Below the pieces are notes generated by a model. That model made no database searches. It was not told the origin of the DNA and was given only the letters and a program-made list of their open reading frames with translations. A stretch of 64,000 nt of DNA from a virus (Duplodnaviria > Heunggongvirae > Uroviricota > Caudoviricetes): the IMG/VR virus record IMGVR_UViG_3300044693_000272; one strand, given 5' to 3'. Shown piece after piece: positions 185 to 60,271 of the stretch; positions within the stretch are counted from its first letter, which is position 1; every line of letters begins with the position of its first letter. The position numbers and the translations under genes are program-made.

Positions 185-240
185 ATGTAATCAGTAACCA
201 AATGATAAACTCACCTGAGTCGCGTGTCAAACAATTTCAC
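185..240 (-). promoter_or_regulatory. conserved phage promoter/operator element: -35 TTGACA (225-230), 17-nt spacer, -10 TATCAT (202-207)
   Basis: Matches the repeated consensus; precedes the gene 1-171. Confidence 0.5.
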
Positions 241-565
241 CCTTGAATCGCCACATCATATTGCAAGCATGCATTTCATCTTTGAAGAAGAAAGCAGGTG
301 ACAGCCGGTTTTGGTCTTTCTTTTCGATACCGTGAGCGTAACACCAAAAGTAATCTGTGAATCCACGCATCTTCATCCATTCGAAGACATCGTACAACCA
401 CAATTCAAGCACTGTGTTTTGATCATGTACGGTCGGAAAAACTACAGCATGCCAACCATGGCATACACGACGTTCAAACTTGATTGTCGGTTCATCCTTC
501 TTAGCATCAAGCATATTGTGCTTTTGTTGTTTGGGTTGCTTCTGCTTTTGATCCTGTTCTGCCAT
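227..565 (-). CDS. hypothetical protein (112 aa)
   Basis: ORF track; GAGGT upstream of ATG; same strand and packing as neighbours. Confidence 0.45.
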   Translation of the reverse strand: MAEQDQKQKQPKQQKHNMLDAKKDEPTIKFERRVCHGWHAVVFPTVHDQNTVLELWLYDVFEWMKMRGFTDYFWCYAHGIEKKDQNRLSPAFFFKDEMHACNMMWRFKGEIV

Positions 566-587
566 GGTTACCTCAAGAATGAATGAT

Positions 588-612
588 AGCCAGATGTTAC
601 AACCATCTGGCT
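588..612 (-). terminator. hairpin terminator after gene 631-933
   Basis: agccagatg-ttacaac-catctggct stem-loop with T-rich flanks. Confidence 0.4.
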
Positions 613-630
613 ATTTCATCAATGCTTATC

Positions 631-933
631 TTACTTTTCAACATTCACGCAGAAACCATATATCTGTGATAGTGATGTCCAACCATTTGTCCCGCCACGA
701 TTGTTACCTATCAGCACACGTTTACCATCAACGGCTTTGACGAGGTGTAGATACTGCGCTCCCATCACTTTACAAAGTACAATGTCCCCTTTCTCAGGTA
801 TTCGTGTACCTCTGGGCTCAACTGTAACAAGGTCTCCATCATTTACTAGCCCAGTCATTGAATGACCTCTAGGTCGAAACTGAATAGTCTCACCCTGAAG
901 CAATTTGCCAATGTAAATTGTTGCCCAACCCAT
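631..933 (-). CDS. S24 family peptidase domain protein (LexA/UmuD-like catalytic domain)
   Basis: Motif RGHSMTGLVNDGDLVTVEP ... GDIVL ... K resembles the GDSM...GD...K Ser-Lys dyad region of LexA/UmuD/signal peptidases. Confidence 0.5.
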   Translation of the reverse strand: MGWATIYIGKLLQGETIQFRPRGHSMTGLVNDGDLVTVEPRGTRIPEKGDIVLCKVMGAQYLHLVKAVDGKRVLIGNNRGGTNGWTSLSQIYGFCVNVEK

Positions 934-936
934 GTA

Positions 937-1095
937 TCAACCGTACTTCGAATATAGAAGCCCAATCACATAAGCGATCATACGAAACGGGCCGGTGATA
1001 ACATAATCGAGCCACTTCGGCAGTTGAAAGTTTGAAAGAATCCAAATGAAACCAACGAATAACCATACTACTAAAGCAATTCCAATGTAAATCAT
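937..1095 (-). CDS. small hydrophobic membrane protein (52 aa)
   Basis: Not in the ORF track (<60 aa); ATG at 1093-1095 preceded by AAGGTGA; hydrophobic MIYIGIALVVWLFVGFIWIL...; stop overlaps the start of the next gene. Confidence 0.35.
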   Translation of the reverse strand: MIYIGIALVVWLFVGFIWILSNFQLPKWLDYVITGPFRMIAYVIGLLYSKYG

Positions 1096-1107
1096 TATTT
1101 CACCTTG

Positions 1108-2016
1108 TTATGTGATAGCAGGTTTATCGAGACTTCCGAAGCCGTTCAATGTCGCTTGTTGAATGCGCTTGCCAAGTTCGCGATTACGCCAGCGCATTGC
1201 ACGAAGCGATCCGCGCCCAAACGAGAATAGATCATTGTCGGCAGCGAAACCGTCAACAATGTCATCACTAATCGCTCGCAGCACATCTTCGAGGCTCCAT
1301 TCGTAGTTACCATTTTCTGGGTGCCGTACTTCTGCTGAATGCCCGATATTAGTAAAGAACGATGCTTCATCCTTCAAGTCAACAAAAACCAAAGGCTGGT
1401 TGTTGAAGAATTTATACACATTGCCCCGTTCGACCACCTCCAACTCTGCTTCATTGACGTAAGTTGATCCGTGCCCAGTCTGGCGATATTCGTCGACTAG
1501 ATCAACATGATATGACACATCACGTTCCGAATCGCCGATATTATAATCAATGCGACGAATGCGACCGAATTTATAATGATCACGCCAACGATCAGGCATC
1601 CGATACCGAATATAGTCGAGCTCCCATCCCTTCGTGACAGGTAGATCACCAATTCTCTCGGCATTTTCGTATTTGTCGTCACATGCCGTATAGCCGATCA
1701 GTGCCGTTTCTTCGCGACGTTGTTGTGCTCGCCGTTCGAATTCTTTTCGATTGACCATCTCCAACTTATATGCATTTGGAGTCGTCACTGAGCCGTCATG
1801 ATCCCATTTAACTTGGCATGAACCATCCCTCACCCAGATACCAGGCTCTCTTGATACGAAGCCGTAACGTTCTTCGATTCTGGTCACTCGATTTTTGCCG
1901 ACGACAACACCTTTCGCACGATCCATCGGCGGATCACCTGGAGTCGGATAGTAATCTTGGCCACGCTTGAATATGACAGTGTCATCGATACGGAACAAAC
2001 TTTCGGTGAAAGACAT
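1108..2016 (-). CDS. hypothetical protein (302 aa)
   Basis: Long ORF; AAGGAGAG SD before the ATG. Confidence 0.6.
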   Translation of the reverse strand: MSFTESLFRIDDTVIFKRGQDYYPTPGDPPMDRAKGVVVGKNRVTRIEERYGFVSREPGIWVRDGSCQVKWDHDGSVTTPNAYKLEMVNRKEFERRAQQRREETALIGYTACDDKYENAERIGDLPVTKGWELDYIRYRMPDRWRDHYKFGRIRRIDYNIGDSERDVSYHVDLVDEYRQTGHGSTYVNEAELEVVERGNVYKFFNNQPLVFVDLKDEASFFTNIGHSAEVRHPENGNYEWSLEDVLRAISDDIVDGFAADNDLFSFGRGSLRAMRWRNRELGKRIQQATLNGFGSLDKPAIT

Positions 2017-2027: not shown

Positions 2028-2219
2028 TTATGCAAGGTCGTAAAACGATGGTTCCGTATCGATTGCATGCAAACCTTTGAGACGTGCATCAATTTCAGCA
2101 CAAGCAACATCATATAACGGATGCATCTCGTTGGCCTCGATCTTTGCAAGCTCCAAGTCTGTCATCTTTGCAACCGTTTCGTAGTGCTTGCGGGCCGCCG
2201 TCGTGATCACTTTTGTCAT
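2028..2219 (-). CDS. hypothetical protein (63 aa)
   Basis: Promoter motif copy 2229-2281 immediately upstream; AAGGAG SD. Confidence 0.5.
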   Translation of the reverse strand: MTKVITTAARKHYETVAKMTDLELAKIEANEMHPLYDVACAEIDARLKGLHAIDTEPSFYDLA

Positions 2220-2228
2220 CTCCTTGTT

Positions 2229-2281
2229 TGTTTACCATGTTCAAATGATACGTTCACCTGAGTGAACGTTCAAGCACTTTT
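2229..2281 (-). promoter_or_regulatory. conserved promoter/operator element: -35 TTGAAC (2268-2273), 17 nt, -10 TATCAT (2245-2250)
   Basis: Spacer is a perfect palindrome GTTCAC-TCAG-GTGAAC; followed by TTGAACATGGTAAACA and AAGGAG. Confidence 0.55.
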
Positions 2282-2849
2282 AGTCGTAGAGGCTATAGCT
2301 GTGGATGCGCTTGTGGACGGGGCGCTTTTTCTTCGTTGCGCCCAAGCGCACCAGGAACGCTTCCACCTCGTCAAACGTCCAGCCCATCTCGCCAGTCCAG
2401 CCGTCCGTATTAAAGGAAACCCCAGAGCACCAGTTTCCCCCGTTACGTTCATTCGGTCGCCACGCAAGTTTTTTCGGAGTGCGCTGGTAATACGTGCCGC
2501 CCAGCAAGCCAGTCTGCGGGTCAAAGGTAAACCGCACAGTGCAAATGCTTTCCATCTCCTTCAGCAACTCACGTTCTTTTTCCGTAAGCGAAACTCGGAT
2601 CGCCATCTGCGCTTGATCGATGTACTGGTGATCAGTGAAGCCGAAGTGCTCTTTGAACTTCTTCTCCCACTGGCTGTGCGTGATACGCTCCAGCTTTTTG
2701 TAGTCCTTGTCATTCAGGTAATTCAGGACGGGGATCGACTCGCAGTCGAGATAATCGGCGAGATAGTCGATCAATTCATGCGAGTCTCGCACTTCGTCCA
2801 TCAGGTATTCCAAAACTGTTGCAACGCCTTGTTCGAAAGTGATCTGCAT
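2280..2849 (-). CDS. hypothetical protein (about 189 aa; start trimmed to MQITFEQ)
   Basis: The ORF-track N-terminus MNMVNNGG is read-through of the promoter motif at 2877-2927; ATG at 2849 follows GGCGGAG. Confidence 0.5.
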   Translation of the reverse strand: MQITFEQGVATVLEYLMDEVRDSHELIDYLADYLDCESIPVLNYLNDKDYKKLERITHSQWEKKFKEHFGFTDHQYIDQAQMAIRVSLTEKERELLKEMESICTVRFTFDPQTGLLGGTYYQRTPKKLAWRPNERNGGNWCSGVSFNTDGWTGEMGWTFDEVEAFLVRLGATKKKRPVHKRIHSYSLYD

Positions 2850-2876
2850 GTTTTGCACTCCGCCGTTGTTTACCAT

Positions 2877-2927
2877 GTTCAAATGATAAGTTCACTTGAA
2901 CGTAGCGTCAAGCGTTTTTACAGTTGG
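2877..2927 (-). promoter_or_regulatory. conserved promoter/operator element: -35 TTGACG (2915-2920), -10 TATCAT (2892-2897)
   Basis: Consensus copy upstream of 2280-2849. Confidence 0.5.
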
Positions 2928-3235
2928 GTTTTCATCTTGCGCAACATCTGGGCGATTGAATTGCAACCAGCTTCACGAGCGTTTCGTTCTTGCATACCAA
3001 GTTTGCCACCGCCTCGTTGGCCGCTTCTAAATTCGTGCCCACGCTCTTGAGCAAGCTTTGCTGCTTCTTCGAGCAATAGCTCACTAAACTTACGGAGCTC
3101 ATGTTGAATCATGATGCGTTCTTTCACGCCCTGTTCTTCACCGTTGGCGTCGATGACTTTGTCATTTTTGGATACATCAAAACCGGCTTGCTTCGCCAGT
3201 TCGAAAATATCGATAGATTCTTGTTTCTTAATCAT
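2918..3235 (-). CDS. hypothetical protein (about 105 aa; start MIKKQES)
   Basis: Trimmed promoter-motif artefact; ACGGAG SD upstream of the ATG at 3235. Confidence 0.5.
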   Translation of the reverse strand: MIKKQESIDIFELAKQAGFDVSKNDKVIDANGEEQGVKERIMIQHELRKFSELLLEEAAKLAQERGHEFRSGQRGGGKLGMQERNAREAGCNSIAQMLRKMKTQL

Positions 3236-3290
3236 AATCATCTCCGTAACATTTACCATAAAGATATGGTATGTTCATATGAACATGATG

Positions 3291-3602
3291 TCAAGGCTTC
3301 GGGGCGGGTGGATTAGGATGCGGTGGGGCAGAACTATTCGATGGCCATCGAATAACATATGGTTGATCAAGATCGTATGAGGAAAATATTGTTTCTCGAT
3401 AGCCTTGAGCCCAATCAACGAAACGGTACCACCATACCCAAAACAACGCAGCCAAAGCAAATTGAATGAAGGTGTTGATAGCAGGTTTCTGCAGTAAGTA
3501 CAGAAATGTAGGATATGCGATCAGAAATATAGCGACTGGAGCAAAGCACATCACGTAATATCGACGGCTTCCAATAGTCGGGCGTTGCAACCAAGACATC
3601 AA
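3291..3602 (-). CDS. hypothetical membrane protein with proline-rich C-terminus
   Basis: Hydrophobic segments; ORF track. Confidence 0.45.
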   Translation of the reverse strand: MMSWLQRPTIGSRRYYVMCFAPVAIFLIAYPTFLYLLQKPAINTFIQFALAALFWVWWYRFVDWAQGYRETIFSSYDLDQPYVIRWPSNSSAPPHPNPPAPKP

Positions 3603-3659
3603 TGCCTCTTAATGAATTTACCAAATGTATGGTAAATTCACTAGAAGTATTTGTCAACG

Positions 3660-4559
3660 TTATGGCAAAATTGCATCAAGAATAGCAACACAAGCTTTGG
3701 CAGTGCGAAGGTCGCCAGAATCACGCTCTGGATTATATTCGACCAATTCGAAGCCAATCAACTTGCGTTTGTTCATACTTTCAAATGTCCTTACTACATC
3801 AGATAGCCACAACCCACCATCTTCTGGTGAACCAACTCCTGGTGCATCAATAGGATCCAGACTATCAATGTCAAATGTGATGCCATAACCAACAGTTTCT
3901 TTTGAAACTATTTCAATAGCTTCGTCTAAGCAAACATCGAAACCACGGTCATGCACTTCTTCAATTCGCATAACGCGAACGCCAAGGCTTTCTAGTAGAT
4001 CTTCTTCACCCTTTTCACTGCTCCGTGCTCCGATCACCACTACATTTTGAGGACGTAGCTTTCGAACAACATCGTGTATGGTGGTGAGATTGCGGCTGCC
4101 ATACCCTAGAAGGCAGGCTAGAGGCATACCATGAGGAGCACCGCTTTCAGATGTTTGTGGAGTATGACTGTCAAGATGAGCATCAATCCAGATTAGACCA
4201 ATATCACCCATTGTTCGATAGAAATTAGCTATTGCACTCCAAGTGCCAATTGCACAGGAATGATCACCGCCAATTACGAGAGGGAAACGTTCTTTTGAGA
4301 GTGTAGAATGTACGGCATTGGCAAGTCTTGGCATATATTCTTCGACCACCGCCAATTTACCGTGTTCCAGCAAAGAAGCATCACTGGTTATAAAAGATCC
4401 CCATTGAAGGGGAATAGGAAGCTTTGAAATATGTTCTCGGAGTGCAAGAGGCCCTGATTTGCACTCCATGATCTGGGCGCCTTCGCCGATTGCTGCTAAA
4501 GTAATTTCGATATGTTGCACGACAATCTCCAGAAAATAATTGGCAAATGGCACAGACAT
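3660..4559 (-). CDS. arginase/agmatinase/formiminoglutamase-family ureohydrolase
   Basis: Binuclear-Mn signature motifs of the arginase fold: VIGGDHSCAIG, IWIDAHLDSHTP, SGAPHGMPLA. Confidence 0.7.
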   Translation of the reverse strand: MSVPFANYFLEIVVQHIEITLAAIGEGAQIMECKSGPLALREHISKLPIPLQWGSFITSDASLLEHGKLAVVEEYMPRLANAVHSTLSKERFPLVIGGDHSCAIGTWSAIANFYRTMGDIGLIWIDAHLDSHTPQTSESGAPHGMPLACLLGYGSRNLTTIHDVVRKLRPQNVVVIGARSSEKGEEDLLESLGVRVMRIEEVHDRGFDVCLDEAIEIVSKETVGYGITFDIDSLDPIDAPGVGSPEDGGLWLSDVVRTFESMNKRKLIGFELVEYNPERDSGDLRTAKACVAILDAILP

Positions 4560-4902: not shown

Positions 4903-5142
4903 TTAGACTGCGCTATCGATTTCGTTTGAAAGAATATCGAAATGGTACACAATATGTGGCAATTCATAGCGAATGAGAGAAATCAACTTACCTTCGCAAG
5001 CCGTACCGTAATTCTGGTCCGTTGCTTTCATCCATTCAAGCATCTCTGGCTTGTTCAACAACTTCACTGCATCGGTTAGTTTCTTATATGCATCAGCGAA
5101 ATCTTCTGTGAAGTCAATACTACTTTCATATTGAGCAGCCAT
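4903..5142 (-). CDS. hypothetical protein (79 aa)
   Basis: Promoter motif copy 5160-5215 upstream; terminator-like hairpin 4860-4882 downstream. Confidence 0.5.
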   Translation of the reverse strand: MAAQYESSIDFTEDFADAYKKLTDAVKLLNKPEMLEWMKATDQNYGTACEGKLISLIRYELPHIVYHFDILSNEIDSAV

Positions 5143-5242
5143 TTAAACCTCCGTTGTGTTGTTCACCATATATCAAATAATACATTCATTTGGTAACAAG
5201 TCAAGCAATATCATTCGTACTCTATCGTCAATCGTTGTCATA

Positions 5243-50731: not shown

Positions 50732-50790
50732 GTGATTCTCCGACTTTCGTAGTACAAGAACTCACATGATACGTTCATATGAACCGTAAG

Positions 50791-51066
50791 TCAACCCCAA
50801 GCCAGCAACCAGGCAACCGCATCAGTTTCATGCTGAAAATAAATTGCTGGTGGTATGAAATCTACTGCTGGGTTGAAACCGATCTTCCCCTTCACATTTT
50901 CAGTGCGCCAATCAGGATCCACTTCATAGAAGTGATCGTGTTTATCAGATAGTAATACTGAGCCAGGAAGGAAACGAACATTTCCCATTGTTCGAGACAT
51001 CCAGTTTCGAACTCGATCTTCGCCATATCTGGCTTGGAAGGCTGCGAATGAGAGTAACTGCATCAA
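50791..51066 (-). CDS. C-terminal-motif family member (91 aa)
   Basis: Ends TDAVAWLLAWG. Confidence 0.45.
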   Translation of the reverse strand: MMQLLSFAAFQARYGEDRVRNWMSRTMGNVRFLPGSVLLSDKHDHFYEVDPDWRTENVKGKIGFNPAVDFIPPAIYFQHETDAVAWLLAWG

Positions 51067-51305
51067 TCACCTTTCTTACCAAGTCGTATGACAAAGCGAT
51101 CACCAAACTTTTCAATCTCGAAAGTTTCTCCCTGAAAATAACTTATGTAGTCGGCGGGAACTTCAAGCTTCATTTCGGTTTCATAGACCGAGGTGTACGG
51201 TTGATAACCGTACCGATCATTTTCGGCTGTTGTAATTACTTCGATCTGGGTGTCTTCAGGAAATTGATCCAACCAGCGTTGCAATTCGACTCGAGTAGTC
51301 ATCAT
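51063..51305 (-). CDS. hypothetical protein (80 aa)
   Basis: ATGA-coupled. Confidence 0.45.
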   Translation of the reverse strand: MMTTRVELQRWLDQFPEDTQIEVITTAENDRYGYQPYTSVYETEMKLEVPADYISYFQGETFEIEKFGDRFVIRLGKKGD

Positions 51306-51362
51306 AATCTCCTGAAGTAATCATGCTCATATGGTACGTTCATATGAGCATGATATCAAGAG

Positions 51363-51641
51363 CTATGCGACCAAATGAACCGTAAGATAATCTATAAAGC
51401 TTTTGAAATACACTTGATATGGTCTTCTATCATTAGATCGCTCACAGATCACATCGCCGCGCAATCCTCGATATAAAAGGTGAAAAGCATGGTTATCGAA
51501 CCTAAAACCTTCGCTGAAAGTCAAACGAACAATGACTTCAGGTTTGAAACCATGCTCTAGTTCAAAGTCATGAATCTTCTGTTGACGACCCAGAAAGGCA
51601 AGTGTGGGATCGAGATATTCTTCAAGAGTCCAAGCAATCAT
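51363..51641 (-). CDS. divergent C-terminal-motif family member (92 aa)
   Basis: Ends FIDYLTVHLVA. Confidence 0.4.
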   Translation of the reverse strand: MIAWTLEEYLDPTLAFLGRQQKIHDFELEHGFKPEVIVRLTFSEGFRFDNHAFHLLYRGLRGDVICERSNDRRPYQVYFKSFIDYLTVHLVA

Positions 51642-54524: not shown

Positions 54525-54546
54525 CATACTAGACTCCGTGTTTGTT

Positions 54547-54598
54547 TTACCATGTTCAGATGGTACATTCACCTGAACATGGTTACAAGCACTTTTTA
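54547..54598 (-). promoter_or_regulatory. conserved promoter/operator element: -35 TTGTAA (54583-54588), -10 TACCAT (54560-54565)
   Basis: 10-bp inverted repeat CCATGTTCAG ... CTGAACATGG brackets the -10 hexamer. Confidence 0.5.
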
Positions 54599-55066
54599 GC
54601 ACTTGACCTCGAATGATGCACCGTACTGCACAACCACAAACGTGACACGAACAGAAGTGCGCGTTTCTGCCTCCTTCTCCGTTTCCGCATCGCCGATGAA
54701 GTCGATAGCAACGTTCACACCAATTCCCGCGAGACGTTTGATTGCCGAGAAATTGATGTCGAAATCATCGAAGCCATGCACTTGCGATTGTGGCACGATG
54801 TATTGGCGCATACGCAGCAGAAGTTCGTCGATTTCTTCTTTGCTGTAGAGCTTTCCGAACGCCTTTTCGGAATCCAGGAAAACATGGTTGAACATCGAAC
54901 AAAAAGGAGCGTCAGGCAAGACTTCCTTGTATGCTTGGCAAAGCTGGCGAATGAGCTCGTCGTTCTCGGACAAATAGCTGAGCACCGTGCAGAGATTATC
55001 GAAAGTCTCGATACCCAGTGCGGCTTCGAACTGATCTTTGGTTGCGTTGATGTCGGCGATACGCAT
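54596..55066 (-). CDS. hypothetical protein (about 156 aa; start MRIADINA)
   Basis: CAGGAGCAAACAA ATG. Confidence 0.5.
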   Translation of the reverse strand: MRIADINATKDQFEAALGIETFDNLCTVLSYLSENDELIRQLCQAYKEVLPDAPFCSMFNHVFLDSEKAFGKLYSKEEIDELLLRMRQYIVPQSQVHGFDDFDINFSAIKRLAGIGVNVAIDFIGDAETEKEAETRTSVRVTFVVVQYGASFEVKC

Positions 55067-55181
55067 TTGTTTGCTCCTGTTGTTAACCATAATCATATGG
55101 TAAGTTCAAATGAACAAAACATCAACACCAGAAATGACGATGGCTAGGGTAAAACCTAGCCATTGTATTACGCGTTACTGC

Positions 55182-55679
55182 TTACGCAGCAGCCTTATCG
55201 GCCTTTGCCGCCTTCTTGGCTGCCTTTTCGGCTGCCGCAGCGGCAGCCGCCACCGAAGCTTGCGTCGGGAACGCGAACACCTTCTTCGGGTTCGGTGCCT
55301 TGTACTTCGGAGCTTGCGGCTTCGTCGAACGCGTGTTCAGCTTGCCGTTGCCCATCGCCTTGTAGAACATCTTGCCGAGGTTTGCTTCAAAATCGGCACC
55401 GAGCGTTTCGACCTGAGCCGCAGCATCGAGATCCTTATACGCAAAACCCTTGTCCTTGCCCGTCAGCTTTTTCGCGTAAAATGCGAGTACGCTTTCGAGT
55501 GCATCTTTCTTGTATGTCTTGAAACGCAGCATGCCACCACGGCGGCCACCGAACGTCACGAGGTTGCCTTGTACCTTTGCCACACCGAACACGCTGTCCT
55601 TCGACGGAGCACCACCGTTATCACCACGCTTGCCAGCGATCAGTGCATGACCAACACGCAGAATTTCGACCTTTGCCAT
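55182..55679 (-). CDS. WGR-domain protein with Ala/Lys-rich tail (165 aa)
   Basis: MAKVEILRVGH ... LVTFGGRRGGMLRFKTYKKDALESVLAFYAKKLTGKDKGFAY; tail AAAAAAEKAAKKAAKADKAAA; AGAGGAGATTACAA ATG. Confidence 0.6.
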   Translation of the reverse strand: MAKVEILRVGHALIAGKRGDNGGAPSKDSVFGVAKVQGNLVTFGGRRGGMLRFKTYKKDALESVLAFYAKKLTGKDKGFAYKDLDAAAQVETLGADFEANLGKMFYKAMGNGKLNTRSTKPQAPKYKAPNPKKVFAFPTQASVAAAAAAAEKAAKKAAKADKAAA

Positions 55680-55896
55680 TTGTAATCTCCTTTAAAGTTT
55701 TTACCATTTTGCAGTGCTTTCTTTGCACTGCGCGTCTACCATGTATCACATTCTGTGTTCATTTGATACTTGAGTCAACAGCTAAATGAACAAATTTTTC
55801 AACTTTTTGATTCGTTGCTTTGATGCAACATGGCGGAAAACCACTTTGACAAGAGATTGTCAGTGTAAAATGGCAACCTATTATGTGAGGATCGAT

Positions 55897-56775: not shown

Positions 56776-56990
56776 GAGATTGCTTTTTGTAAGGCCACGA
56801 TCATCATCTGAACGCGTTCTTTAGATTGGTAACGTGCAAGAAGAGCAGCAGCTTGTTCCATGTGAATCTTTGCCGTTTGCTCACTGGTTTCGAAGATCTC
56901 GAAACCATATTCTTGAAATTCAAGGAGAGCACGTTCAGTTTCAACACGACGTTCTTGTTGACGTGCCTTGTAACGTTCTGCGCTGTTCAT
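56772..56990 (-). CDS. hypothetical coiled-coil protein (about 72 aa; start MNSAERY)
   Basis: Promoter-motif artefact trimmed; GGAGAAGGAG ATG. Confidence 0.45.
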   Translation of the reverse strand: MNSAERYKARQQERRVETERALLEFQEYGFEIFETSEQTAKIHMEQAAALLARYQSKERVQMMIVALQKAIS

Positions 56991-57007
56991 CTCCTTCTCC
57001 TGTCTGT

Positions 57008-57055
57008 CTACCATGTTTCGCATGATATGTTCAGATGAACATGGTATCAAGTGTT
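57008..57055 (-). promoter_or_regulatory. conserved promoter/operator element: -35 TTGATA, -10 TATCAT (57023-57028)
   Basis: Consensus-like copy with GAACATGG repeat. Confidence 0.45.
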
Positions 57056-57151
57056 TTTCACTCGACGTAGTATTCTTTCCACACGTCATTGTCCCACTTC
57101 GCGCTCGTTGGCATCGAGCAATTCAATCTTGATGACTTTCACGTGAACACC

Positions 57152-57451
57152 TTAGGAGCAGTCGGTTGCCTTCAGAATGTCTTCTTCGAAGGACACGCCC
57201 ATACGACGCAGCATGACCGGCAAAGCATTGTAGACAGAATATGCATCTTCTTCGCTGATCTCCCACGAGATGAAGCCACCTTCACCGTCGCGGTCACGAT
57301 CGGACTTGTCTGCGCCACCCCAGCAGCACACCAGATCCAGGAACTTCTTGAAGGTCTGGAAACGATCGTACAGCTTTTCCAGTTCAACGTCGCGGGCGCG
57401 AACATAAATGCGTTGTGTCCTATATGCCGTCTTCGTCATGCCGATGTACAT
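57152..57451 (-). CDS. hypothetical protein (99 aa)
   Basis: AAGGAGTTCACG ATG. Confidence 0.5.
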   Translation of the reverse strand: MYIGMTKTAYRTQRIYVRARDVELEKLYDRFQTFKKFLDLVCCWGGADKSDRDRDGEGGFISWEISEEDAYSVYNALPVMLRRMGVSFEEDILKATDCS

Positions 57452-57520
57452 CGTGAACTCCTTGCAGTTGTTTAACCATGTTCAGATGGTAAGTTCATAT
57501 GAAACATGAATCAAGAGATT

Positions 57521-57751
57521 CTAGTCACAATCGCTGAAATCGACGTCAGCGACACTGAAGCCCAGCGCCTTACGGACAGCCTTCTCGGGCACTTCATCGA
57601 CCCGAATCGCAAAGCCATACCCACAGTGCCGCCCATTCTCGCCTTCCATCACAAGTGCTTGCTTGATGAGCTGCATGAGGTTGTGAAATTCGCGCGAATC
57701 GTCGCACCACACTTCCATTTCCAGCTTGATCTTCTTGACAATAGCAGTCAT
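57521..57751 (-). CDS. hypothetical protein (76 aa)
   Basis: ACGGGAGCAGAAC ATG. Confidence 0.5.
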   Translation of the reverse strand: MTAIVKKIKLEMEVWCDDSREFHNLMQLIKQALVMEGENGRHCGYGFAIRVDEVPEKAVRKALGFSVADVDFSDCD

Positions 57752-57767: not shown

Positions 57768-57974
57768 TTAAAGCTGTTGCATCTGCTTGACAACACCGTG
57801 CAGCACATTCAGCGTGTTGTGTGCCTTTTCGACATCTTCGAACGTAACAAAGCGCTGTTCCGTTTGCAGCGGATGGAAATTGCGCTGCGGGTTCATGTGC
57901 GGATAGCCTTTGTGGTCTACCACTTCACCTTCAGTGTTGACAACTTTAATTTCAACGACCACCGTGTAGCTCAT
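57768..57974 (-). CDS. hypothetical protein (68 aa)
   Basis: AAAGGAGATTCAA ATG. Confidence 0.5.
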   Translation of the reverse strand: MSYTVVVEIKVVNTEGEVVDHKGYPHMNPQRNFHPLQTEQRFVTFEDVEKAHNTLNVLHGVVKQMQQL

Positions 57975-58030
57975 TTGAATCTCCTTTGCTGTTCACCATA
58001 CAAAGATGATACGTTCATATGAACCAAGTA

Positions 58031-58447
58031 TCAAGCGTTTTTGTCTTTTGCTGCTCTACGTTTGGCTGCGCGTTCAGTTGCTTCATGGGAAGTTTTGGCA
58101 GTATGACATGGTTCGCATAGCGTCTGCAAGTTTGGTAGTCGCCAGTAGTCCAAGTTTCCTTGAGCTTCCACGAGTGGTTTGATGTGATCCATGTGCCAAG
58201 GATTCTGGTAACGGTCGCACTTGGCACCACATTGATTACACTTTGCTCGATCGCGTTTGTACACTGCGCGACGGGTAGTGGCGGGCCAGAACAACAGTTT
58301 GTATTCAGCTAGACAGGCAGGATGCCAGCGTGATTTGCTTTGCTTGCCCTTAGGCGTTAGACCAACTTCTTGATTGCACCAACGACAAGTGCCTTCTGGC
58401 ACTGTATCGAAATATGGTGGCTTTGGAGGTGTACGGTGAGCACCCAT
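58031..58447 (-). CDS. HNH endonuclease
   Basis: CRWC ... HMDHIKP ... NLQTLCEPCHTAKT. Confidence 0.6.
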   Translation of the reverse strand: MGAHRTPPKPPYFDTVPEGTCRWCNQEVGLTPKGKQSKSRWHPACLAEYKLLFWPATTRRAVYKRDRAKCNQCGAKCDRYQNPWHMDHIKPLVEAQGNLDYWRLPNLQTLCEPCHTAKTSHEATERAAKRRAAKDKNA

Positions 58448-58494
58448 GAAAAATCCCCTAACTAGTAGGGGATATTTATTGTGGCGGCGAAGAA

Positions 58495-58863
58495 TTAGCC
58501 TGCGTGACGTGTAACGAAATTAATTCGAGTACGTTGTGGAGCAAAATACTTGTTAACCATGTCGATCACTGTTTGCTGATCATATTCTCGACAGGAAAAT
58601 ACGTCGAAGTAAGCAGTGCCATCGAGGTCCATAAAATGCCCGCAAATGTTGGAGGTCGTGATGAGCTGCATCAGGCTATAGCCCTGCTTTGGATCGCCTG
58701 GCAACAGATATTCGATGATAGGCTCGCCGTGCGCTTCCATATCGATAGCGACGACTAGTTCCTTGATGAAGTTGTAGATTGCTTCCTTGCTACCAATGCC
58801 ACCGTCAACTTTACAACCTGCACAGTCCAGCATGAGGTGATAACCCCAGAATTTGTTATCCAT
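58495..58863 (-). CDS. S-adenosylmethionine decarboxylase-like protein (SpeH/SpeD class 1 fold)
   Basis: WGYHLMLDCAGC ... EAHGEPII ... LITTSNICGHFMD ... YFDVFSC parallels bacterial AdoMetDC (G.HL..ELYGC ... LLAESHITIHTWPE ... IDIFTCG); the Glu-Ser cleavage pair is Thr-Ser here. Confidence 0.5.
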   Translation of the reverse strand: MDNKFWGYHLMLDCAGCKVDGGIGSKEAIYNFIKELVVAIDMEAHGEPIIEYLLPGDPKQGYSLMQLITTSNICGHFMDLDGTAYFDVFSCREYDQQTVIDMVNKYFAPQRTRINFVTRHAG

Positions 58864-58916
58864 AATAATCCCGTCCGAGTTAAGGAATGTGTTAATACCG
58901 TTCGGAACTATTTATG

Positions 58917-58950
58917 AAAAGATTAAGGGGCCATTTAGCCCCTTAATCTT
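58917..58950. terminator. hairpin terminator
   Basis: aaaagattaagggg-ccattta-gccccttaatcttt. Confidence 0.45.
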
Positions 58951-59198
58951 TAGTCGAGTTCTGGGGACCAATCGTAGCGCTTCACTTCAACTTTTACATC
59001 ACGGAAGCTTGCACCATTTTCACGTGCTTTGCGTTTAAGATAATTCAATTTTTCAGGTTTCGCTTCACCAATCCATATGATGTGATCGTAAGTGTGAGTA
59101 CCAATAATCGGGCGAGGTTCGGTTACAATAACTCGATAAAACTCACGCACTACTTCTTCACCCAGAACTTCGATGTTATGCTCAAGTTTTGTGGCCAT
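58950..59198 (-). CDS. hypothetical protein (about 82 aa; start MATKLEHN)
   Basis: ACGGAGCGTTCGAAA ATG. Confidence 0.5.
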   Translation of the reverse strand: MATKLEHNIEVLGEEVVREFYRVIVTEPRPIIGTHTYDHIIWIGEAKPEKLNYLKRKARENGASFRDVKVEVKRYDWSPELD

Positions 59199-59256
59199 TT
59201 TCGAACGCTCCGTGTTGTTCATCATATTCAAATGATAGTTTCACTTGAACATGATG

Positions 59257-59448
59257 TCAACACCTATTTGCTTTGACGTGCGTAGCAAGAGTGTCCGCGA
59301 TTGATTGCAAATCACTAACACGAATCAACTTAGTGTTTGCAACAATTTGTCGCATGATTTGCTCAAGATGAGATTCGCATTCAAAATGAATGTCTTTGAA
59401 TTCAGGCGCACGGTCATTCGGAAAGAGATAAATTTTTGTCGTTACCAT
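59257..59448 (-). CDS. hypothetical protein (about 63 aa)
   Basis: AAGGAGTAGCGATATG start. Confidence 0.45.
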   Translation of the reverse strand: MVTTKIYLFPNDRAPEFKDIHFECESHLEQIMRQIVANTKLIRVSDLQSIADTLATHVKANRC

Positions 59449-59506
59449 ATCGCTACTCCTTATGCTGTTTTCATGTTTCAAATGATACGGCCAGTTGAAC
59501 GAGGAG

Positions 59507-60271
59507 TCAATGCTGGCGATACGTAAGGTTATTGTAAATCTCGTTATCGCAGATGTCTTCGCCTACATTGCGAAACACATAGACATTTCTACCCGAAAAG
59601 AACATTTCCATAGCTATGTCATCTACACGTGGATGTACGATAGCACCGTTAGGCGTGAGGAATGGGTTAAGAATGAAGTCCCAATCATTATGTCCCCAAT
59701 GCTTAAGGTGGGTAATATCGCCAGGAGTATCATTCAATCCTTCACGCAATACATAGTTGATTCTAATTTTGGAGAACGATGCGTAATGCATGGATACGGA
59801 TTCCAAAATCCGATAAATCGGATCAGATTTTGGAATCATCTTATCACGAATCGACTGATTAAAAGTGTGCATCGACACCTGTAACTCAGCAGGGAAAGTG
59901 GTAGTATCAAGAAAACGTATCCGGCGGGATGCAACCCCACTTATCGAATAACGAACTGATGTGATCGGTATGCTAAGAGTGTAGAGGGTTGATAAAGCAT
60001 TGCTCACATTCTCGGTGTTAAAGAGAACATCACCCTCGCCAGTAAATGAAAGAACAAATGGGTGATTTGGTGCATTTTTGACCACCAAATCAACAATCTC
60101 ATCAGCAGTGAGATTACGAACAAATTTATTGGTAGTTGATACGCAAAATGAACAACCGACCGGACAACCAATCTGCGTTGGAACACTTAGGACATTTTTA
60201 TTACCAGCACTGACATTCAGTACTGGCACGCTGATGTCTTTGATTGGTATGTGCCGAAGATAAACGCTCAC
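59507..60271 (-). CDS. radical SAM domain protein (254 aa), GTG start
   Basis: GCPVGCSFC is the CxxxCxxC cluster motif; SFTGEGDVLF is a glycine-rich SAM-binding segment; the start is GTG 3 nt after the upstream stop. Confidence 0.55.
   Translation of the reverse strand: MSVYLRHIPIKDISVPVLNVSAGNKNVLSVPTQIGCPVGCSFCVSTTNKFVRNLTADEIVDLVVKNAPNHPFVLSFTGEGDVLFNTENVSNALSTLYTLSIPITSVRYSISGVASRRIRFLDTTTFPAELQVSMHTFNQSIRDKMIPKSDPIYRILESVSMHYASFSKIRINYVLREGLNDTPGDITHLKHWGHNDWDFILNPFLTPNGAIVHPRVDDIAMEMFFSGRNVYVFRNVGEDICDNEIYNNLTYRQH

What the first reader, a model, noticed from the sequence alone, without database searches (positions are those of the whole stretch)
185..59520. One conserved promoter/operator cassette reused before more than 40 genes
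Dozens of minus-strand genes are preceded by an approximately 50-nt element. In gene orientation it reads: a sigma70-like -35 (TTGACA/TTGCAA/TTGACG), a 17-nt spacer, a -10 (TATCAT/TAATAT/TACCAT), then TTGAACATGGTAAACA, about 5 nt, AGGAG and the ATG. The spacer and the first transcribed bases form an inverted repeat (CATGTTCA ... TGAACATG, up to 10 bp) bracketing the -10, so every promoter carries the same dyad operator. This implies that either a single dimeric DNA-binding factor (phage repressor or activator, or a host factor) or a phage-modified RNA polymerase governs the whole block. It also implies a shared 5' UTR (ACAUGGUAAACA...) on every transcript. The element contains an in-frame ATG and translates as MN[VLI]SFEHGK, which falsely extends many ORFs in automated calls.
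Basis: seen in the sequence. Interest (0 to 1): 0.8.

Follow-up and report, generated by a model that had tools for sequence, protein, structure and literature searches.

The report
Repeated phage promoter-hairpin-leader cassette
About fifty small genes of an uncultivated giant phage each carry the same roughly 70-base "promoter plus hairpin plus leader" cassette, a variant of the promoter/stem-loop cassettes (PeSLs) already described in T4-like phages, so it is real and tidy but not a new kind of element.

Summary
A position-weight scan finds 47 copies on the minus strand (-10 elements at 207 to 59487), one palindromic shadow on the plus strand and none in shuffles. Six weaker copies were found by eye or regex. 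46 of 47 sit about 25 nt upstream of an SD-linked start codon.

The anatomy is an A-tract or TTCATTT, TTGAC(a), a 17-bp spacer, TAtcAT, tGAAC, a predicted +1 at the A of ATGGTAAACA, then AGGAG and ATG.

The dyad is longer than reported: a 15-bp stem with a 5-nt loop spanning -30 to +5, with the -10 hexamer inside it. It is strong in only a third to a half of copies. It shows compensatory changes in two independent sequence sets, which fits a hairpin better than a fixed operator. Yet TCAnnTGA stays nearly invariant even where pairing is lost, so a sequence-specific reader is not excluded.

The same cassette fills related contigs of 290 to 524 kb and many metagenome contigs. Against a syntenic relative, unrelated ORFans are swapped between cassettes.

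The closest known analogue is the PeSL cassette of T4-type phages. I rate it a new variant of a known kind, of moderate interest. Nothing here is shown experimentally.

The parts
31195..31265 (-). Reference copy, with sub-features in window coordinates. A-tract ATAAAAC lies upstream. -35 TTGACA is at 31255-31250. Spacer core TTCAggTGAA (-24..-15) is at 31244-31235. -10 TATCAT is at 31232-31227. The stem -30..+5 spans 31250-31216 with 15/15 pairs and MFE -20.3 kcal/mol. Predicted +1 (A of ATGG) is at 31220. SD AGGAG is at 31208-31204 and ATG at 31197-31195. It drives a 365-aa ORF.
169..240 (-). Cassette copy: TTGACA / TATCAT (-10 starts at 207); 11/15 stem pairs; the ORF runs off the window.
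2208..2283 (-). Cassette copy: TTGAAC / TATCAT (2250); 9/15 pairs; 60-aa ORF.
2847..2921 (-). Cassette copy: TTGACG / TATCAT (2888); 14/15 pairs; 189-aa ORF.
3233..3304 (-). Cassette copy: TTGACA / TACCAT (3271); 11/15 pairs; 105-aa ORF.
3589..3667 (-). Degenerate copy: TTGACA-17-TACCAT (3634), with spacer TTCTAGTGAA.
5137..5215 (-). Copy missed by the PWM register: GCTTGACTTGTTACCAAATGAATGTATTATTTGATATATGGTGAACA (-10 at 5182).
11938..12016 (-). Degenerate copy: TTGCAA-17-TATCAT (11983). TGAA is present but TTCA is absent.
14401..14472 (-). Cassette copy: TTGACT / TAATAT (14439); 5/15 pairs; TTCAGTT at -47; 120-aa ORF.
15101..15170 (-). Cassette copy: TTGCTG / TACTAT (15137); 7/15 pairs; upstream GC stem-loop plus TTCATTC; 170-aa ORF.
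16709..16778 (-). Cassette copy: TTGCTA / TATCAT (16745); 10/15 pairs; 86-aa ORF.
17402..17471 (-). Cassette copy: TTGCGG / TAAAAT (17438); 7/15 pairs; 210-aa ORF.
17950..18028 (-). Weak candidate copy: TTGCTC...TGAAACT TATAAT (17995).
18316..18388 (-). Cassette copy: TTGCAA / TATCAT (18355); 15/15 pairs, -21.0 kcal/mol; 60-aa ORF.
18639..18710 (-). Cassette copy: TTGCAA / TATCAT (18677); 12/15 pairs; 85-aa ORF.
19628..19706 (-). Degenerate copy after a terminator-like hairpin: GCTTGCTTCATTCATCATCTGAATATACCAT (19673).
21601..21670 (-). Cassette copy: TTGACT / TAAACT (21637); 7/15 pairs; 268-aa ORF.
28033..28104 (-). Cassette copy: TTTACA / TACTAT (28071); 9/15 pairs; 112-aa ORF; orthologous copy in R1 (L026:4133).
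28969..29046 (-). Cassette copy: TTGACG / TATCAT (29013); 9/15 pairs; 123-aa ORF (96% identical in R1); orthologous copy L026:3289.
31462..31537 (-). Cassette copy: TTGACA / CAGAAT (31504); 6/15 pairs; upstream stem-loop plus TTCATTT. It drives a 67-aa ORFan that is replaced in R1.
33149..33223 (-). Cassette copy: TTGCGT / CAGAAT (33190); 7/15 pairs; TTCATTT at -47; 215-aa ORF.
33409..33480 (-). Cassette copy: TTGATA / TATTAT (33447); 12/15 pairs; upstream stem-loop plus TTCATTT. It drives a 61-aa ORFan absent from R1.
33925..34000 (-). Cassette copy: TTGACT / TACCAT (33967); 6/15 pairs; 132-aa ORF.
34955..35033 (-). Weak copy: TTGACT / CATCAT (35000); 10/15 pairs. No SD-linked ORF was called.
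35876..35954 (-). Copy missed by the PWM: GCTTGATTTTGCCTTCATATGAAGCTATCATTTGGTTAG (-10 at 35921).
37318..37412 (-). Cassette copy: TTGACG / TAGAAT (37379); 6/15 pairs; long 47-nt leader; 119-aa ORF of a paralogous family.
37833..37904 (-). Cassette copy: TTTACT / TACCAT (37871); 9/15 pairs; 97-aa ORF.
39095..39164 (-). Cassette copy: TTGATG / TACTAT (39131); 13/15 pairs with compensated arms CCGTACTAA/TGAGTATGG; 69-aa ORF.
39958..40030 (-). Cassette copy: TCGTAA / TTCCAT (39997); 11/15 pairs; upstream stem-loop plus TTCATTC; 133-aa ORF.
40263..40333 (-). Cassette copy: TTGATT / TAATAT (40300); 10/15 pairs; upstream stem-loop plus TTCATTT; 65-aa ORF.
40921..40996 (-). Cassette copy: TTGCAA / CATAAT (40963); 9/15 pairs in the fixed register, with compensated GATCAAAT/ATTTGAT; 181-aa ORF.
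41439..41512 (-). Cassette copy: TTGCAA / TATCAT (41479); 15/15 pairs; 123-aa ORF. Its 3' half is identical to that of the next copy.
41695..41768 (-). Cassette copy: TTGCGA / TATCAT (41735); 12/15 pairs; 62-aa ORF.
42498..42570 (-). Cassette copy with an 18-nt spacer register: TTGCAC / TATAAT (42537); 237-aa ORF.
43182..43257 (-). Cassette copy: TTGATA / TATTAT (43224); 10/15 pairs; 83-aa ORF.
43873..43947 (-). Cassette copy: TTGACA / CACAAT (43914); 8/15 pairs; 183-aa ORF.
44548..44619 (-). Cassette copy: TTGACT / TACAAT (44586); 11/15 pairs with compensated CCATATTCA/TGAATATGG. It lies upstream of the operon that holds the HTH gene 44112-44426.
45499..45566 (-). Cassette copy: TTTACT / TACCAT (45533); 7/15 pairs; upstream stem-loop plus CTCATTT; 71-aa ORF.
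45941..46015 (-). Cassette copy: TCGCAA / ATTCAT (45982); 13/15 pairs; 110-aa ORF. The plus-strand PWM hit at 45990 is its mirror.
46475..46547 (-). Cassette copy: TTGCGG / TAATAT (46514); 14/15 pairs with compensated ATATTCA/TGAATAT; 155-aa ORF.
46771..46838 (-). Cassette copy: TTGACG / TACCAT (46805); 10/15 pairs; 76-aa ORF.
48409..48478 (-). Cassette copy: TTGACT / AACAAT (48445); 11/15 pairs; upstream terminator-like hairpin; 71-aa ORF.
48921..49025 (-). Cassette copy: TTGACG / TATCAT (48992); 17-bp shifted stem, -17.8 kcal/mol; long 57-nt leader; 131-aa paralogue.
50729..50804 (-). Cassette copy: TTGACT / TATCAT (50771); 13/15 pairs; 65-aa ORF.
51303..51369 (-). Cassette copy: TTGATA / TACCAT (51336); 14/15 pairs with compensated CATGCTCA/TGAGCATG, -19.9 kcal/mol; 80-aa ORF.
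54525..54598 (-). Cassette copy: TTGTAA / TACCAT (54565); 14/15 pairs, -21.5 kcal/mol; 106-aa ORFan absent from R1.
55064..55135 (-). Cassette copy: TTGATG / TACCAT (55102); 11/15 pairs; upstream terminator-like hairpin plus TCATTTC; 156-aa ORFan absent from R1.
55677..55788 (-). Cassette copy: TTGACT / CAGAAT (55755); 11/15 pairs; 64-nt leader with an extra small hairpin; 165-aa paralogue; orthologous copy L021:3316.
56988..57060 (-). Cassette copy: TTGATA / TATCAT (57027); 8/15 pairs in the fixed register (1-nt shift; folds at -10.8 kcal/mol); 72-aa ORF; orthologous copy L021:1928.
57449..57524 (-). Cassette copy: TTGATT / TACCAT (57491); 99-aa ORFan absent from R1.
57972..58044 (-). Cassette copy: TTGATA / TATCAT (58011); 10/15 pairs; 68-aa ORFan absent from R1.
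59196..59270 (-). Cassette copy: TTGACA / TATCAT (59237); 15/15 pairs, -19.7 kcal/mol. Its 82-aa ORFan is replaced by a different ORF behind the orthologous R1 copy L021:122.
59446..59520 (-). Cassette copy: TTGACT / TATCAT (59487); 11/15 pairs; 63-aa ORF. This is the last copy in the window.

Best explanation
The element is a repeated regulatory cassette of a very large uncultivated phage.

Inferred from sequence only:
- The host sigma70-type RNA polymerase holoenzyme binds TTGAC(a)-17 bp-TAtcAT. An A-tract at about -43..-38 that resembles a UP element may help.
- Transcription starts at the A of ATGGTAAACA, giving a roughly 25-nt A/C-rich, unstructured leader that ends in AGGAG and the start codon.
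- With about one cassette per 1.2 kb, each cassette would head a short transcription unit (counting genes per unit is my inference from the rough gene calls).

Shown statistically, function inferred:
- A palindrome from -30 to +5 contains the -10 hexamer in its 3' arm and loop. In a third to a half of copies it can form a stem-loop of 12 to 15 bp.
- Its arms co-vary, with a G.U over A.C bias of about 2:1 on the sense strand. The most likely reading is a hairpin in sense RNA that reads through from the upstream unit. It would act as an attenuator, processing site or 3' stabiliser, as proposed and partly shown for the stem-loops of PeSL cassettes. It is not a canonical intrinsic terminator, because no U-tract follows it.
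- Copies that instead have a separate upstream GC stem-loop followed by TTCATTT have weaker embedded stems, which fits the two being alternative ways to handle read-through.

Shown by synteny, mechanism inferred:
- The roughly 70-nt identical patches also serve as homology for exchanging ORFan modules.

Not explained by the hairpin: the near-invariance of TCAnnTGA. An additional sequence-specific reader, from phage or host, remains likely.
For: Copy number, strand and position:
- 47 minus-strand copies against 1 plus-strand hit and 0 in shuffles.
- A generic sigma70 scan ranks these sites at the top, with a 17-bp spacer.
- 46/47 precede an SD-linked ORF, with a median leader of 25 nt.

Information profile: TTG, TCA, TGA, TA..AT, GA and GG are conserved, and Y(-1)/A(+1) lies 7 nt after the -10.

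Conservation across lineages: the same architecture is found in relatives.
- IMG/VR contigs of 524, 425 and 290 kb, and three contigs from one further sample.
- 124 further unique copies in 27 metagenome contigs, about 1 per kb and almost all co-oriented.
- Orthologous copies diverge at the non-core positions.

Hairpin:
- MFE down to -21.5 kcal/mol; mean z = -2.9; 25/47 copies with z < -2. In R1 the mean z is -3.8.
- 69.8% of cells are paired against 65.5 +/- 0.6 in shuffles (0/500), and 27-47% when the partner is slid. Both-side changes number 106 against 63 +/- 7 (0/500).
- An independent metagenome set replicates this: 69.4% against 65.3% (0/500), and 114 against 70 (0/500).
- Compensation has Fisher p = 2e-4 at -25/-1 and 7e-6 at -24/-2.
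- G.U against A.C counts are 163:76 and 190:114.

Alternative upstream terminator class: TTCAT-class copies have weaker embedded stems (-6.8 against -10.9 kcal/mol, p = 0.007) and stronger upstream stems (p = 0.002).

Shuffling: between conserved genes, the window and R1 carry different ORFans, each behind its own cassette. DNA homology resumes at about -41 and -34 of the cassette. The cassettes at 41479 and 41735 share identical 3' halves before unrelated ORFs.

Precedent: PeSLs are sigma70 consensus promoters with AT-rich upstream DNA, a stem-loop between -35 and -10 or overlapping the -10, and an SD plus ATG at the 3' end. Promoter and terminator activity were shown for them (PMC2839356; PMC4122927).
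Against: - There is no experimental TSS. The host and the phage's own transcription machinery are unknown.
- RNAalifold returns no consensus structure, because about 30% of cells are unpaired.
- The excess pairing over shuffles is small (about 4 points). Shuffle tests ignore relatedness among copies, and the 'both-side change' count of one slid control (+1) is close to the observed value.
- The embedded stem has no U-tract, so terminator function is not predicted.
- The C-CAA variant (ACCAAATGAA) is not compensated: only 4/36 have the matching partner.
- In the R2 lineage and the 'AGGAACATGG' subfamily the stem is weak, yet GTTCAnnTGAAC and GAACAT are kept. This points to sequence-specific recognition.
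- Gene indels would tend to end in intergenic DNA anyway, so the shuffling evidence is only consistent, not decisive.
Confidence: 0.6

Rival explanations
1. Global operator. The palindromic core is the binding site of one dimeric DNA-binding protein from phage or host. TCAnnTGA is present twice, at -23..-15 and -10..-2. Because the sites overlap the spacer, the -10 and the start site, the protein would switch all these promoters off or on together, for example at the early-to-middle transition. This could coexist with the hairpin.
For: - TCA and TGA are nearly invariant: A-21 in 212/222 copies, G-17 in 221/222 and T-18 in 219/222. Neither sigma70 nor pairing requires that.
- The core is retained in lineages where the 3' arm no longer pairs, such as R2 with TATAAT AGGAACAT.
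- Many copies carry a perfect 12-14-bp inner palindrome, GGTTCATATGAACC.
- A small HTH protein sits behind a cassette at 44112-44426. It scores 1e-4 against Sigma70_r4 and 5e-5 against PHROG 66. Homologues at about 60% identity occur in two cassette-bearing metagenome contigs.
Against: - The outer arms vary and compensate, which is not expected for a protein site.
- No cognate protein has been shown. The HTH match is below Pfam's cut-off, and no relative turned up in IMG/VR by the peptide-pattern method.
- The two cores are 13 bp apart centre to centre, an unusual spacing for cooperative dimers (my own judgement).
Confidence: 0.3
2. Promoters of a phage-encoded sigma factor or phage RNA polymerase. 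The whole -35 to +10 block would be the recognition sequence of a phage-specified enzyme, making this a middle rather than an early class. Its resemblance to sigma70 elements would reflect a sigma70-family phage sigma.
For: - Conservation extends well beyond the two hexamers, across the spacer core, -5..-1 and +1..+10, as in phage-specific promoters.
- Very large phages often encode sigma factors. This is my own knowledge; phage G, for instance, has three sigma70-like factors (PMC12484599).
Against: - TTGAC-17-TAnnAT, the UP-like A-tract and the Y-1/R+1 start site fit the housekeeping holoenzyme fully.
- No sigma factor or RNA polymerase gene was found among the 138 window ORFs. The only related hit is a 104-aa protein with an HTH resembling region 4.
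- The rest of the genome could not be read.
Confidence: 0.1
3. Mainly an RNA processing or stability element, or a selfish repeat. The cassette would spread by duplication or recombination and matter chiefly as an RNase III-type or hairpin site between cistrons, or as recombination homology, with the promoter likeness secondary.
For: - The stem co-varies with a G.U bias.
- Adjacent cassettes share identical halves.
- ORFan swaps are bounded by cassettes.
Against: - The best-conserved letters outside the core are exactly the sigma70 contact positions: TTG, and T-12, A-11 and T-7.
- Half of the copies have a poor stem but a good promoter.
- Orientation and distance to start codons are fixed.
- The element is conserved across divergent lineages, so it is not a recent burst.
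Confidence: 0.1

Closest known systems
PeSL (promoter-early stem-loop) cassettes of T4-type phages RB49/phi1, also KVP40/nt-1 and T4/PST (Arbiol, Comeau & Krisch 2010, PMC2839356; Comeau et al. 2014, PMC4122927)
   Same: - A repeated composite motif: sigma70-consensus -35 and -10, AT-rich DNA upstream, and a stem-loop lying between -35 and -10 or overlapping the -10, with G-T pairs tolerated. SD and the start codon sit at the 3' end.
- Dense in ORFan-rich regions.
- Unrelated ORFans are exchanged between cassettes when close relatives are compared.
   Different: - Here the stem is A/T-rich with a conserved sequence (CCATGTTCArrTGA / TCAtyTGAACATGG), not polyG/polyC.
- The stem sits in one fixed register centred on -13 in all lineages. 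PeSLs have five positional subclasses.
- The TCAnnTGA core is invariant even without pairing.
- The first 12 transcribed bases are conserved.
- The phages are uncultivated, with contigs of about 0.3-0.5 Mb and no detectable DNA similarity to sequenced isolates.
- Promoter and terminator activity and mini-circles have not been tested here.
Over-conserved early promoter families of large lytic phages read by host sigma70 RNA polymerase, for example the roughly 40 T4 early promoters (own knowledge; not tested here)
   Same: - Dozens of near-identical strong promoters.
- Information extends beyond the two hexamers, into upstream A/T tracts and spacer positions.
- They drive small early genes.
   Different: T4 early promoters are not built around a co-varying palindrome that contains the -10, and they do not share a conserved leader.
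Repressor operators overlapping promoter cores, such as the lambda/434/P22 OR/OL sites and LexA boxes (own knowledge)
   Same: A short palindrome overlaps the -35/-10 spacer and the start site and is repeated at many promoters.
   Different: - No cognate protein is known.
- The outer half-sites compensate each other instead of keeping a fixed sequence.
- The arrangement GTTC-N4-GAAC is the reverse of the Gram-positive LexA box GAAC-N4-GTTC.
Hairpin promoters of the phage N4 virion RNA polymerase (own knowledge)
   Same: An inverted repeat is centred about 12-13 bp upstream of the start site.
   Different: - N4 hairpins have a 5-7-bp stem and a 3-nt loop. They lack -35/-10 elements and number about three per genome.
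- Here the stem is 15 bp with a 5-nt loop, canonical sigma70 elements are present, and there are more than 47 copies in 59 kb.

Membership tests
Bacterial sigma70-type promoter | A -35 hexamer close to TTGACA and a -10 hexamer close to TATAAT, separated by 17 +/- 1 bp | tested here: met
   Mean matches are 4.5/6 for each hexamer. The spacer is 17 bp in 46 of the 47 PWM copies (one copy reads at 18). TTG is present in 43-46/47 copies, T-12 in 39, A-11 in 45, A-8 in 46 and T-7 in 47.
Bacterial sigma70-type promoter | A purine start site about 7 nt after the -10; position and orientation appropriate for a gene | tested here: met
   Y at -1 and A at +1 (31/47). 46/47 copies lie 19-64 nt (median 25) upstream of an SD-linked start on the same strand.
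Bacterial sigma70-type promoter | Transcription initiates there with the host holoenzyme | not testable with these tools
   This needs TSS mapping or in vitro transcription. The host is unknown.
PeSL regulatory cassette | A sigma70-consensus promoter with AT-rich DNA upstream, and SD plus start codon at the 3' end | tested here: met
   An A-tract at about -43..-38 occurs in about 30 of 75 window and R1 copies.
PeSL regulatory cassette | A stable stem-loop within or overlapping the promoter | tested here: inconclusive
   Present in part of the copies: 25/47 with z < -2 and 14/47 with at least 12/15 pairs. Co-variation is seen in two sets, but there is no RNAalifold consensus.
PeSL regulatory cassette | Enriched in ORFan-rich hyperplastic regions, with cassettes bounding indels and replacements between close relatives | tested here: met
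   Only 23 Pfam families are matched across all 138 ORFs. At least 5 ORFan replacements or insertions in about 18 kb of synteny with R1 each abut a cassette. No chance expectation was computed.
PeSL regulatory cassette | The stem-loop terminates or attenuates upstream transcription; cassette-to-cassette recombination produces mini-circles | not testable with these tools
   This is experimental. In silico, the embedded stem lacks a U-tract.
PeSL regulatory cassette | Host phage belongs to the T4-type myoviruses | not tested
   No structural or replication genes lie in the window. tblastn of three proteins hits only distant jumbo phages and unrelated phage or metagenome records at under 45% identity.
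Intrinsic (rho-independent) terminator | A GC-rich stem-loop immediately followed by a U-tract | tested here: not met
   The embedded stem is followed by GGTAAACAAAC. By contrast, about 11 copies have a separate upstream GC stem-loop followed by (N0-5)TTCATTT.
Dimeric repressor operator | A fixed-sequence palindrome overlapping the promoter core | tested here: inconclusive
   The inner core TCAnnTGA is invariant, with no variation to test. The outer arms vary and compensate.
Dimeric repressor operator | A cognate DNA-binding protein | tested here: inconclusive
   The only candidate is a sub-threshold HTH protein at 44112-44426.
Known RNA family (Rfam) | A match at the gathering score | tested here: not met
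   Only two tRNAs match in the window.

The most novel reading that the evidence does not exclude
The invariant TCAnnTGA core is duplicated 13 bp apart, across the spacer and the -10/discriminator. It could be the operator of a single phage-encoded regulator that gates hundreds of host-polymerase promoters at once across a whole clade of 0.3-0.5 Mb phages. Alternatively, it could be the recognition site of a factor that remodels sigma70 holoenzyme. In either case the co-varying outer stem would add a second, RNA- or DNA-structure layer. That would be a genome-wide single-operator regulon larger than any described for a phage.
Probability: 0.2. Interest if true: 0.65.

Novelty: new variant of a known kind. 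Interest (0 to 1): 0.4.

Why it matters
- **Annotation.** The cassette is a ready-made landmark for a clade of uncultivated giant phages. It fixes true start codons: 27 of 46 naive longest-ORF calls are too long. It also delimits short transcription units and marks the ORFan-rich, presumably early, part of genomes that otherwise have almost no recognisable genes.
- **Generality of the PeSL design.** PeSL-type promoter/stem-loop cassettes were described only in T4-like phages. Finding the same design with a different sequence solution in a distant lineage suggests it is a general way for large phages to insulate, express and shuffle accessory genes.
- **A defined test.** The unexplained invariance of TCAnnTGA gives a small, defined target for finding a global regulator.
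- **A possible tool.** If the cassette is active with a common host polymerase, it is a compact, strong promoter-leader module.

Tried and rejected
- **Leaderless mini-ORF from the +1 AUG.** 26 copies start with ATG at +1. Their frames relative to the main start are spread over all three frames and their lengths range from 4 to 224 codons, so there is no conserved uORF.
This gave only weak covariation, p about 0.02-0.03. It was replaced by the continuous 15-bp stem.
- **Inner palindrome TTCAnnTGAA as a co-varying structure.** Observed Watson-Crick counts equal expectation, and a 2-nt loop is impossible.
- **Direct-repeat coupling of the two TGAAC units.** Identity between them is no higher than expected.
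- **RNAalifold consensus.** None was returned.
- **Rfam.** No family matches the element.
- **Embedded stem as an intrinsic terminator in either direction.** No U-tract is adjacent to it.
- **Identifying the phage or host.** There is no megablast hit in INPHARED. Only chance-level matches turned up in one genome per GTDB species. The only source found is a Logan assembly of SRR23978794.
- **Finding relatives of the HTH candidate in IMG/VR.** None were found by the peptide-pattern method.
- **By-eye comparisons from my own knowledge, all rejected.**
  - The T4 MotA box is in the wrong position.
  - sigma32 promoters have the wrong spacing.
  - Extended -10 TGn: the TG lies 3 bp too far upstream.
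  - LexA/Cheo box has the halves in reverse order.
  - N4 hairpin promoters have a different stem and loop size and lack -35/-10 elements.
- **Phage G megaphage paper.** Its promoter predictions are unrelated to this motif.

Full report

Yes.
- The 10-mer TTGAACATGG with up to one mismatch occurs 32 times against 7.2 +/- 2.9 in dinucleotide shuffles.
- A 60-column weight matrix, iterated from the clear copies, finds 47 copies on the minus strand and one on the plus strand. That one is the mirror reading of the palindromic copy at 45976. It finds none in ten shuffled windows.
- Reading the remaining intergenic DNA adds six degenerate or register-shifted copies, with -10 at 3634, 5182, 11983, 17995, 19673 and 35921.
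- Stretches such as about 5.3-14.4 kb, 21.7-28 kb and 59.5-64 kb have few or none.
- The window is almost entirely small co-oriented minus-strand ORFs with two tRNA genes. It has no near match among sequenced phages, and its proteins hit only distant jumbo phages.

**2. Anatomy**

Positions are numbered with the -10 hexamer at -12..-7.
- Upstream: either an A-tract at about -43..-38 or, in 12/47 copies, TTCATTT at -47.
- -35: TTGAC(a).
- Spacer: 17 bp, containing tTCA-nn-TGAAy at -24..-14. A-21 and G-17 are 47/47, which is stronger than either hexamer.
- -10: TAtcAT.
- Then tGAAc at -5..-1 and a pyrimidine/A junction that predicts +1 at the A of ATGGTAAACAa.
- AGGAG follows at about +13..+19, and the start codon at a median of +25.
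- 46/47 copies are followed by an SD-linked ORF.
- A generic sigma70 scan places these sites at the top of its list, all with 17-bp spacers.

**3. The dyad is longer than reported and varies between copies**

TGA at -18..-16 pairs with TCA at -10..-8 of the -10 hexamer, and -20/-19 pairs with -6/-7. This gives a continuous stem of up to 15 bp with a 5-nt loop, down to -21.5 kcal/mol.

The stem is not universal.
- 25/47 copies have z < -2.
- In the fixed register, 14/47 keep at least 12 of 15 pairs and 28/47 at least 10.

Tests on 98 copies from the window and four IMG/VR relatives:

| Measure | Observed | Shuffled | Shuffles reaching observed | Slid-partner controls |
|---|---|---|---|---|
| Cells paired | 69.8% | 65.5 +/- 0.6% | 0/500 | 27-47% |
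| Cells changed on both sides | 106 | 63 +/- 7 | 0/500 | 36-93 |
| Covariation score | 0.229 | 0.167 +/- 0.009 | 0/500 | 0.07-0.11 |

The structure was derived from the window copies, so I repeated the test on 124 unique copies from metagenome contigs that were not used to define it.
- 69.4% of cells were paired against 65.3 +/- 0.55% (0/500).
- Both-side changes numbered 114 against 70 +/- 6 (0/500).

Over all 222 copies, departures from consensus on the left arm are matched on the right arm.
- At -24/-2, left C has partner G in 9/16 copies against 17/206 elsewhere (p = 7e-6).
- At -24/-2, left A has partner T in 10/26 against 25/196 (p = 0.002).
- At -25/-1, left A has partner T in 29/59 against 37/163 (p = 2e-4).

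Concrete compensated variants recur in different lineages: GCTCA/TGAGC, ACTCA/TGAGT, ATCAA/TTGAT and GCCAA/TTGGT.

G.U-type combinations outnumber A.C by about 2:1 (163:76 and 190:114). Positions -29 and -28 are 85% pyrimidine opposite the conserved GG at +3/+4. This leans towards a sense-strand structure.

Caveats:
- The excess over shuffles is only about four percentage points.
- Copies are related to each other.
- One slid control comes close on the both-side count.
- RNAalifold gives no consensus.
- The ACCAAATGAA variant is not compensated.

**4. What pairing does not explain**

The TCA..TGA core is essentially invariant in all 222 copies. It persists in lineages whose -10 is TATAAT and whose 3' arm reads AGGAACAT, where several stem pairs are lost and folding is weak: R2 has a mean z of -1.9.

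The motif TCAnnTGAA occurs twice, 13 bp apart, at -23..-15 and -10..-2. Each occurrence is itself palindromic, which is why inverted-repeat and direct-repeat readings coexist.

The inner palindrome shows no covariation because it does not vary. Bases +6..+12 (AAACAAA) lie outside the stem and are also conserved.

A sequence-specific reader therefore remains plausible. The only candidate in the window is a 104-aa protein at 44112-44426.
- It has a C-terminal HTH. It scores 22.2 bits against Sigma70_r4, below the 24.1 cut-off, and E = 4.9e-5 against PHROG 66, 'excisionase and transcriptional regulator'.
- It sits behind a cassette.
- It has homologues at about 60% identity in two cassette-bearing metagenome contigs.
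- None was found in IMG/VR by the pattern method.

**5. Distribution**

The cassette is not peculiar to this window. It occurs in:
- IMGVR_UViG_3300037418_001546 (524 kb). This contig is syntenic with window 24.5-37 kb and 53.7-59 kb at 66-86% DNA identity. Its cassettes lie between contig coordinates 220 and 483 kb.
- IMG/VR contigs of 425 kb and 290 kb, and three contigs of one further sample.
- 27 metagenome contigs, at about one copy per kb and almost all co-oriented with the genes.

One genome per GTDB species gave only three chance-level matches. No Rfam family matches.

**6. Two cassette classes**

Copies with TTCAT at -47 have weaker embedded stems, with a mean of -6.8 against -10.9 kcal/mol (Mann-Whitney p = 0.007). 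They also have stronger stem-loops further upstream, -19.5 against -13.3 kcal/mol (p = 0.002).

About eleven window copies have a GC-rich hairpin followed within 0-5 nt by TTCATTT, which is terminator-like. This fits the embedded stem and the separate upstream hairpin being alternative ways of dealing with transcription arriving from the previous unit. The overall rank correlation is weak, however (rho = -0.17, p = 0.15).

**7. Gene shuffling**

In about 18 kb alignable with the 524-kb relative, conserved genes are interrupted by unrelated ORFans that each sit behind their own cassette.
- Between the orthologues of 31584-32414 and 30100-31197, the window has one cassette plus ORFan. The relative has two different ones.
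- The orthologous cassettes at 59237 and L021:122 are followed by different first genes.
- The window carries gene-cassette-gene (58447-57768) where the relative has only a cassette.

DNA homology resumes at about -41 and -34 of the cassettes. The cassettes at 41479 and 41735 share an identical 3' half, including SD and spacer, before unrelated ORFs.

This is the pattern reported for PeSLs, but I computed no chance expectation.

**8. Mechanism**

Most likely (0.6):
- Host sigma70 holoenzyme initiates at the A of ATGG, producing short units with a common unstructured A/C-rich leader.
- The embedded palindrome forms a hairpin in read-through sense RNA that attenuates, processes or stabilises upstream transcripts. 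It is not an intrinsic terminator, since no U-tract follows.
- The repeated 70-nt patches act as recombination homology.

The sigma70 likeness, position, conservation, covariation and synteny pattern are shown in silico. Initiation, hairpin function and recombination are inferred.

Rivals:
- A global operator bound by a dimeric regulator (0.3, and not exclusive of the above).
- Promoters of a phage sigma factor or polymerase (0.1).
- Primarily an RNA-processing or selfish repeat (0.1).

**9. Comparison with known systems**

The closest known systems are the PeSL cassettes of T4-type phages. These are sigma70-consensus promoters with AT-rich upstream DNA, a stem-loop most often between -35 and -10 or overlapping the -10, and SD plus ATG at the 3' end. 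They are dense in ORFan-rich hyperplastic regions and mediate modular shuffling. Promoter and terminator activities have been demonstrated for them (PMC2839356; PMC4122927).

The present element shares the design. It differs in five ways:
- The stem is A/T-rich and conserved in sequence.
- It sits in one fixed register that includes the -10.
- Its core is invariant.
- Its leader is conserved.
- Its host lineage is different.

Whether these phages are T4-like was not tested.

**10. Verdict**

The element is a new variant of a known kind, of moderate interest (0.4). It is useful for annotating a clade of giant uncultivated phages, and it leaves one open question: what reads TCAnnTGA.

Noticed in passing
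window 36961-37412, 48528-49025, 55182-55788 (minus strand): Three paralogous genes of 119, 131 and 165 aa, with no Pfam or PHROG family, carry the cassette but have unusually long leaders of 47-64 nt against a median of 25. The leaders share GACAACGCAAC-like sequence. In the 55755 copy there is an extra small hairpin, GCAGTGC...GCACTGC. The same long leader appears in the relative (L021:3316) and in metagenome loci (L193:5010, L254:13831). It may be an additional 5'-UTR regulatory element.
   Followed up: partly
window 44112-44426 (minus strand): A 104-aa protein has a C-terminal helix-turn-helix. It scores 22.2 bits against Sigma70_r4, below the cut-off, and E = 4.9e-5 against PHROG 66, 'excisionase and transcriptional regulator'. 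Homologues at about 60% identity occur in the cassette-bearing metagenome loci L193 and L254. It is the only candidate DNA-binding regulator seen in the window.
   Followed up: partly
window 41439-41768: Two adjacent cassettes, with -10 at 41479 and 41735, share an identical 41-nt 3' half (TATCATTTGAACATGGTAAACAAACAAGGAGAATAAAGATG) in front of unrelated ORFs. This suggests recent recombination or gene conversion between cassettes.
   Followed up: no
position -47 of 12 window copies, e.g. 15170, 31537, 33480, 40333; also relative loci L151, L026, L061: A conserved TTCATTT sits upstream of the -35, often 0-5 nt after a GC-rich stem-loop. It looks like a terminator tail, but it also occurs without a hairpin. 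It marks a cassette subclass with weak embedded stems.
   Followed up: partly
window 53442-53470 and 54166-54194 (minus strand): Two good sigma70-like sites, TTTACA-17-TACAAT and TTGACG-17-TACAAT, lack the TCAnnTGA spacer core and the conserved leader. The region therefore also has 'plain' promoters.
   Followed up: no
window 20502-20694 (minus strand): tRNA-Pro(TGG) and tRNA-Val(TAC) genes are embedded among the cassette-driven ORFs.
   Followed up: no
whole window; located examples are 3660-4559 (arginase family), 5783-6700 (NMT1/TRAP-type solute-binding-like), 11272-11943 (HD domain), 46832-47941 (acyltransferase) and 52150-53385 (CoaE-like kinase plus phosphohydrolase): Among 138 ORFs only 23 Pfam families are matched. 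They include arginase, AdoMet decarboxylase, Tpt1/KptA RNA 2'-phosphotransferase, RNA ligase 1, radical SAM, Lar, two HNH endonucleases and one GIY-YIG (SegE-like) endonuclease. This looks like a polyamine and RNA-repair flavoured accessory set. Most of these hits were not assigned to individual ORFs.
   Followed up: partly
window 29826-30099, within ORF 30100-31197: The 365-aa ORF behind the strongest cassette is homologous to its relative only over the first 57-65 residues. The rest differs in length, which points to a variable or low-complexity region.
   Followed up: no
window 45990 (plus strand): The single plus-strand PWM hit is the reverse reading of the palindromic cassette at 45982. 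It is not an independent element.
   Followed up: yes
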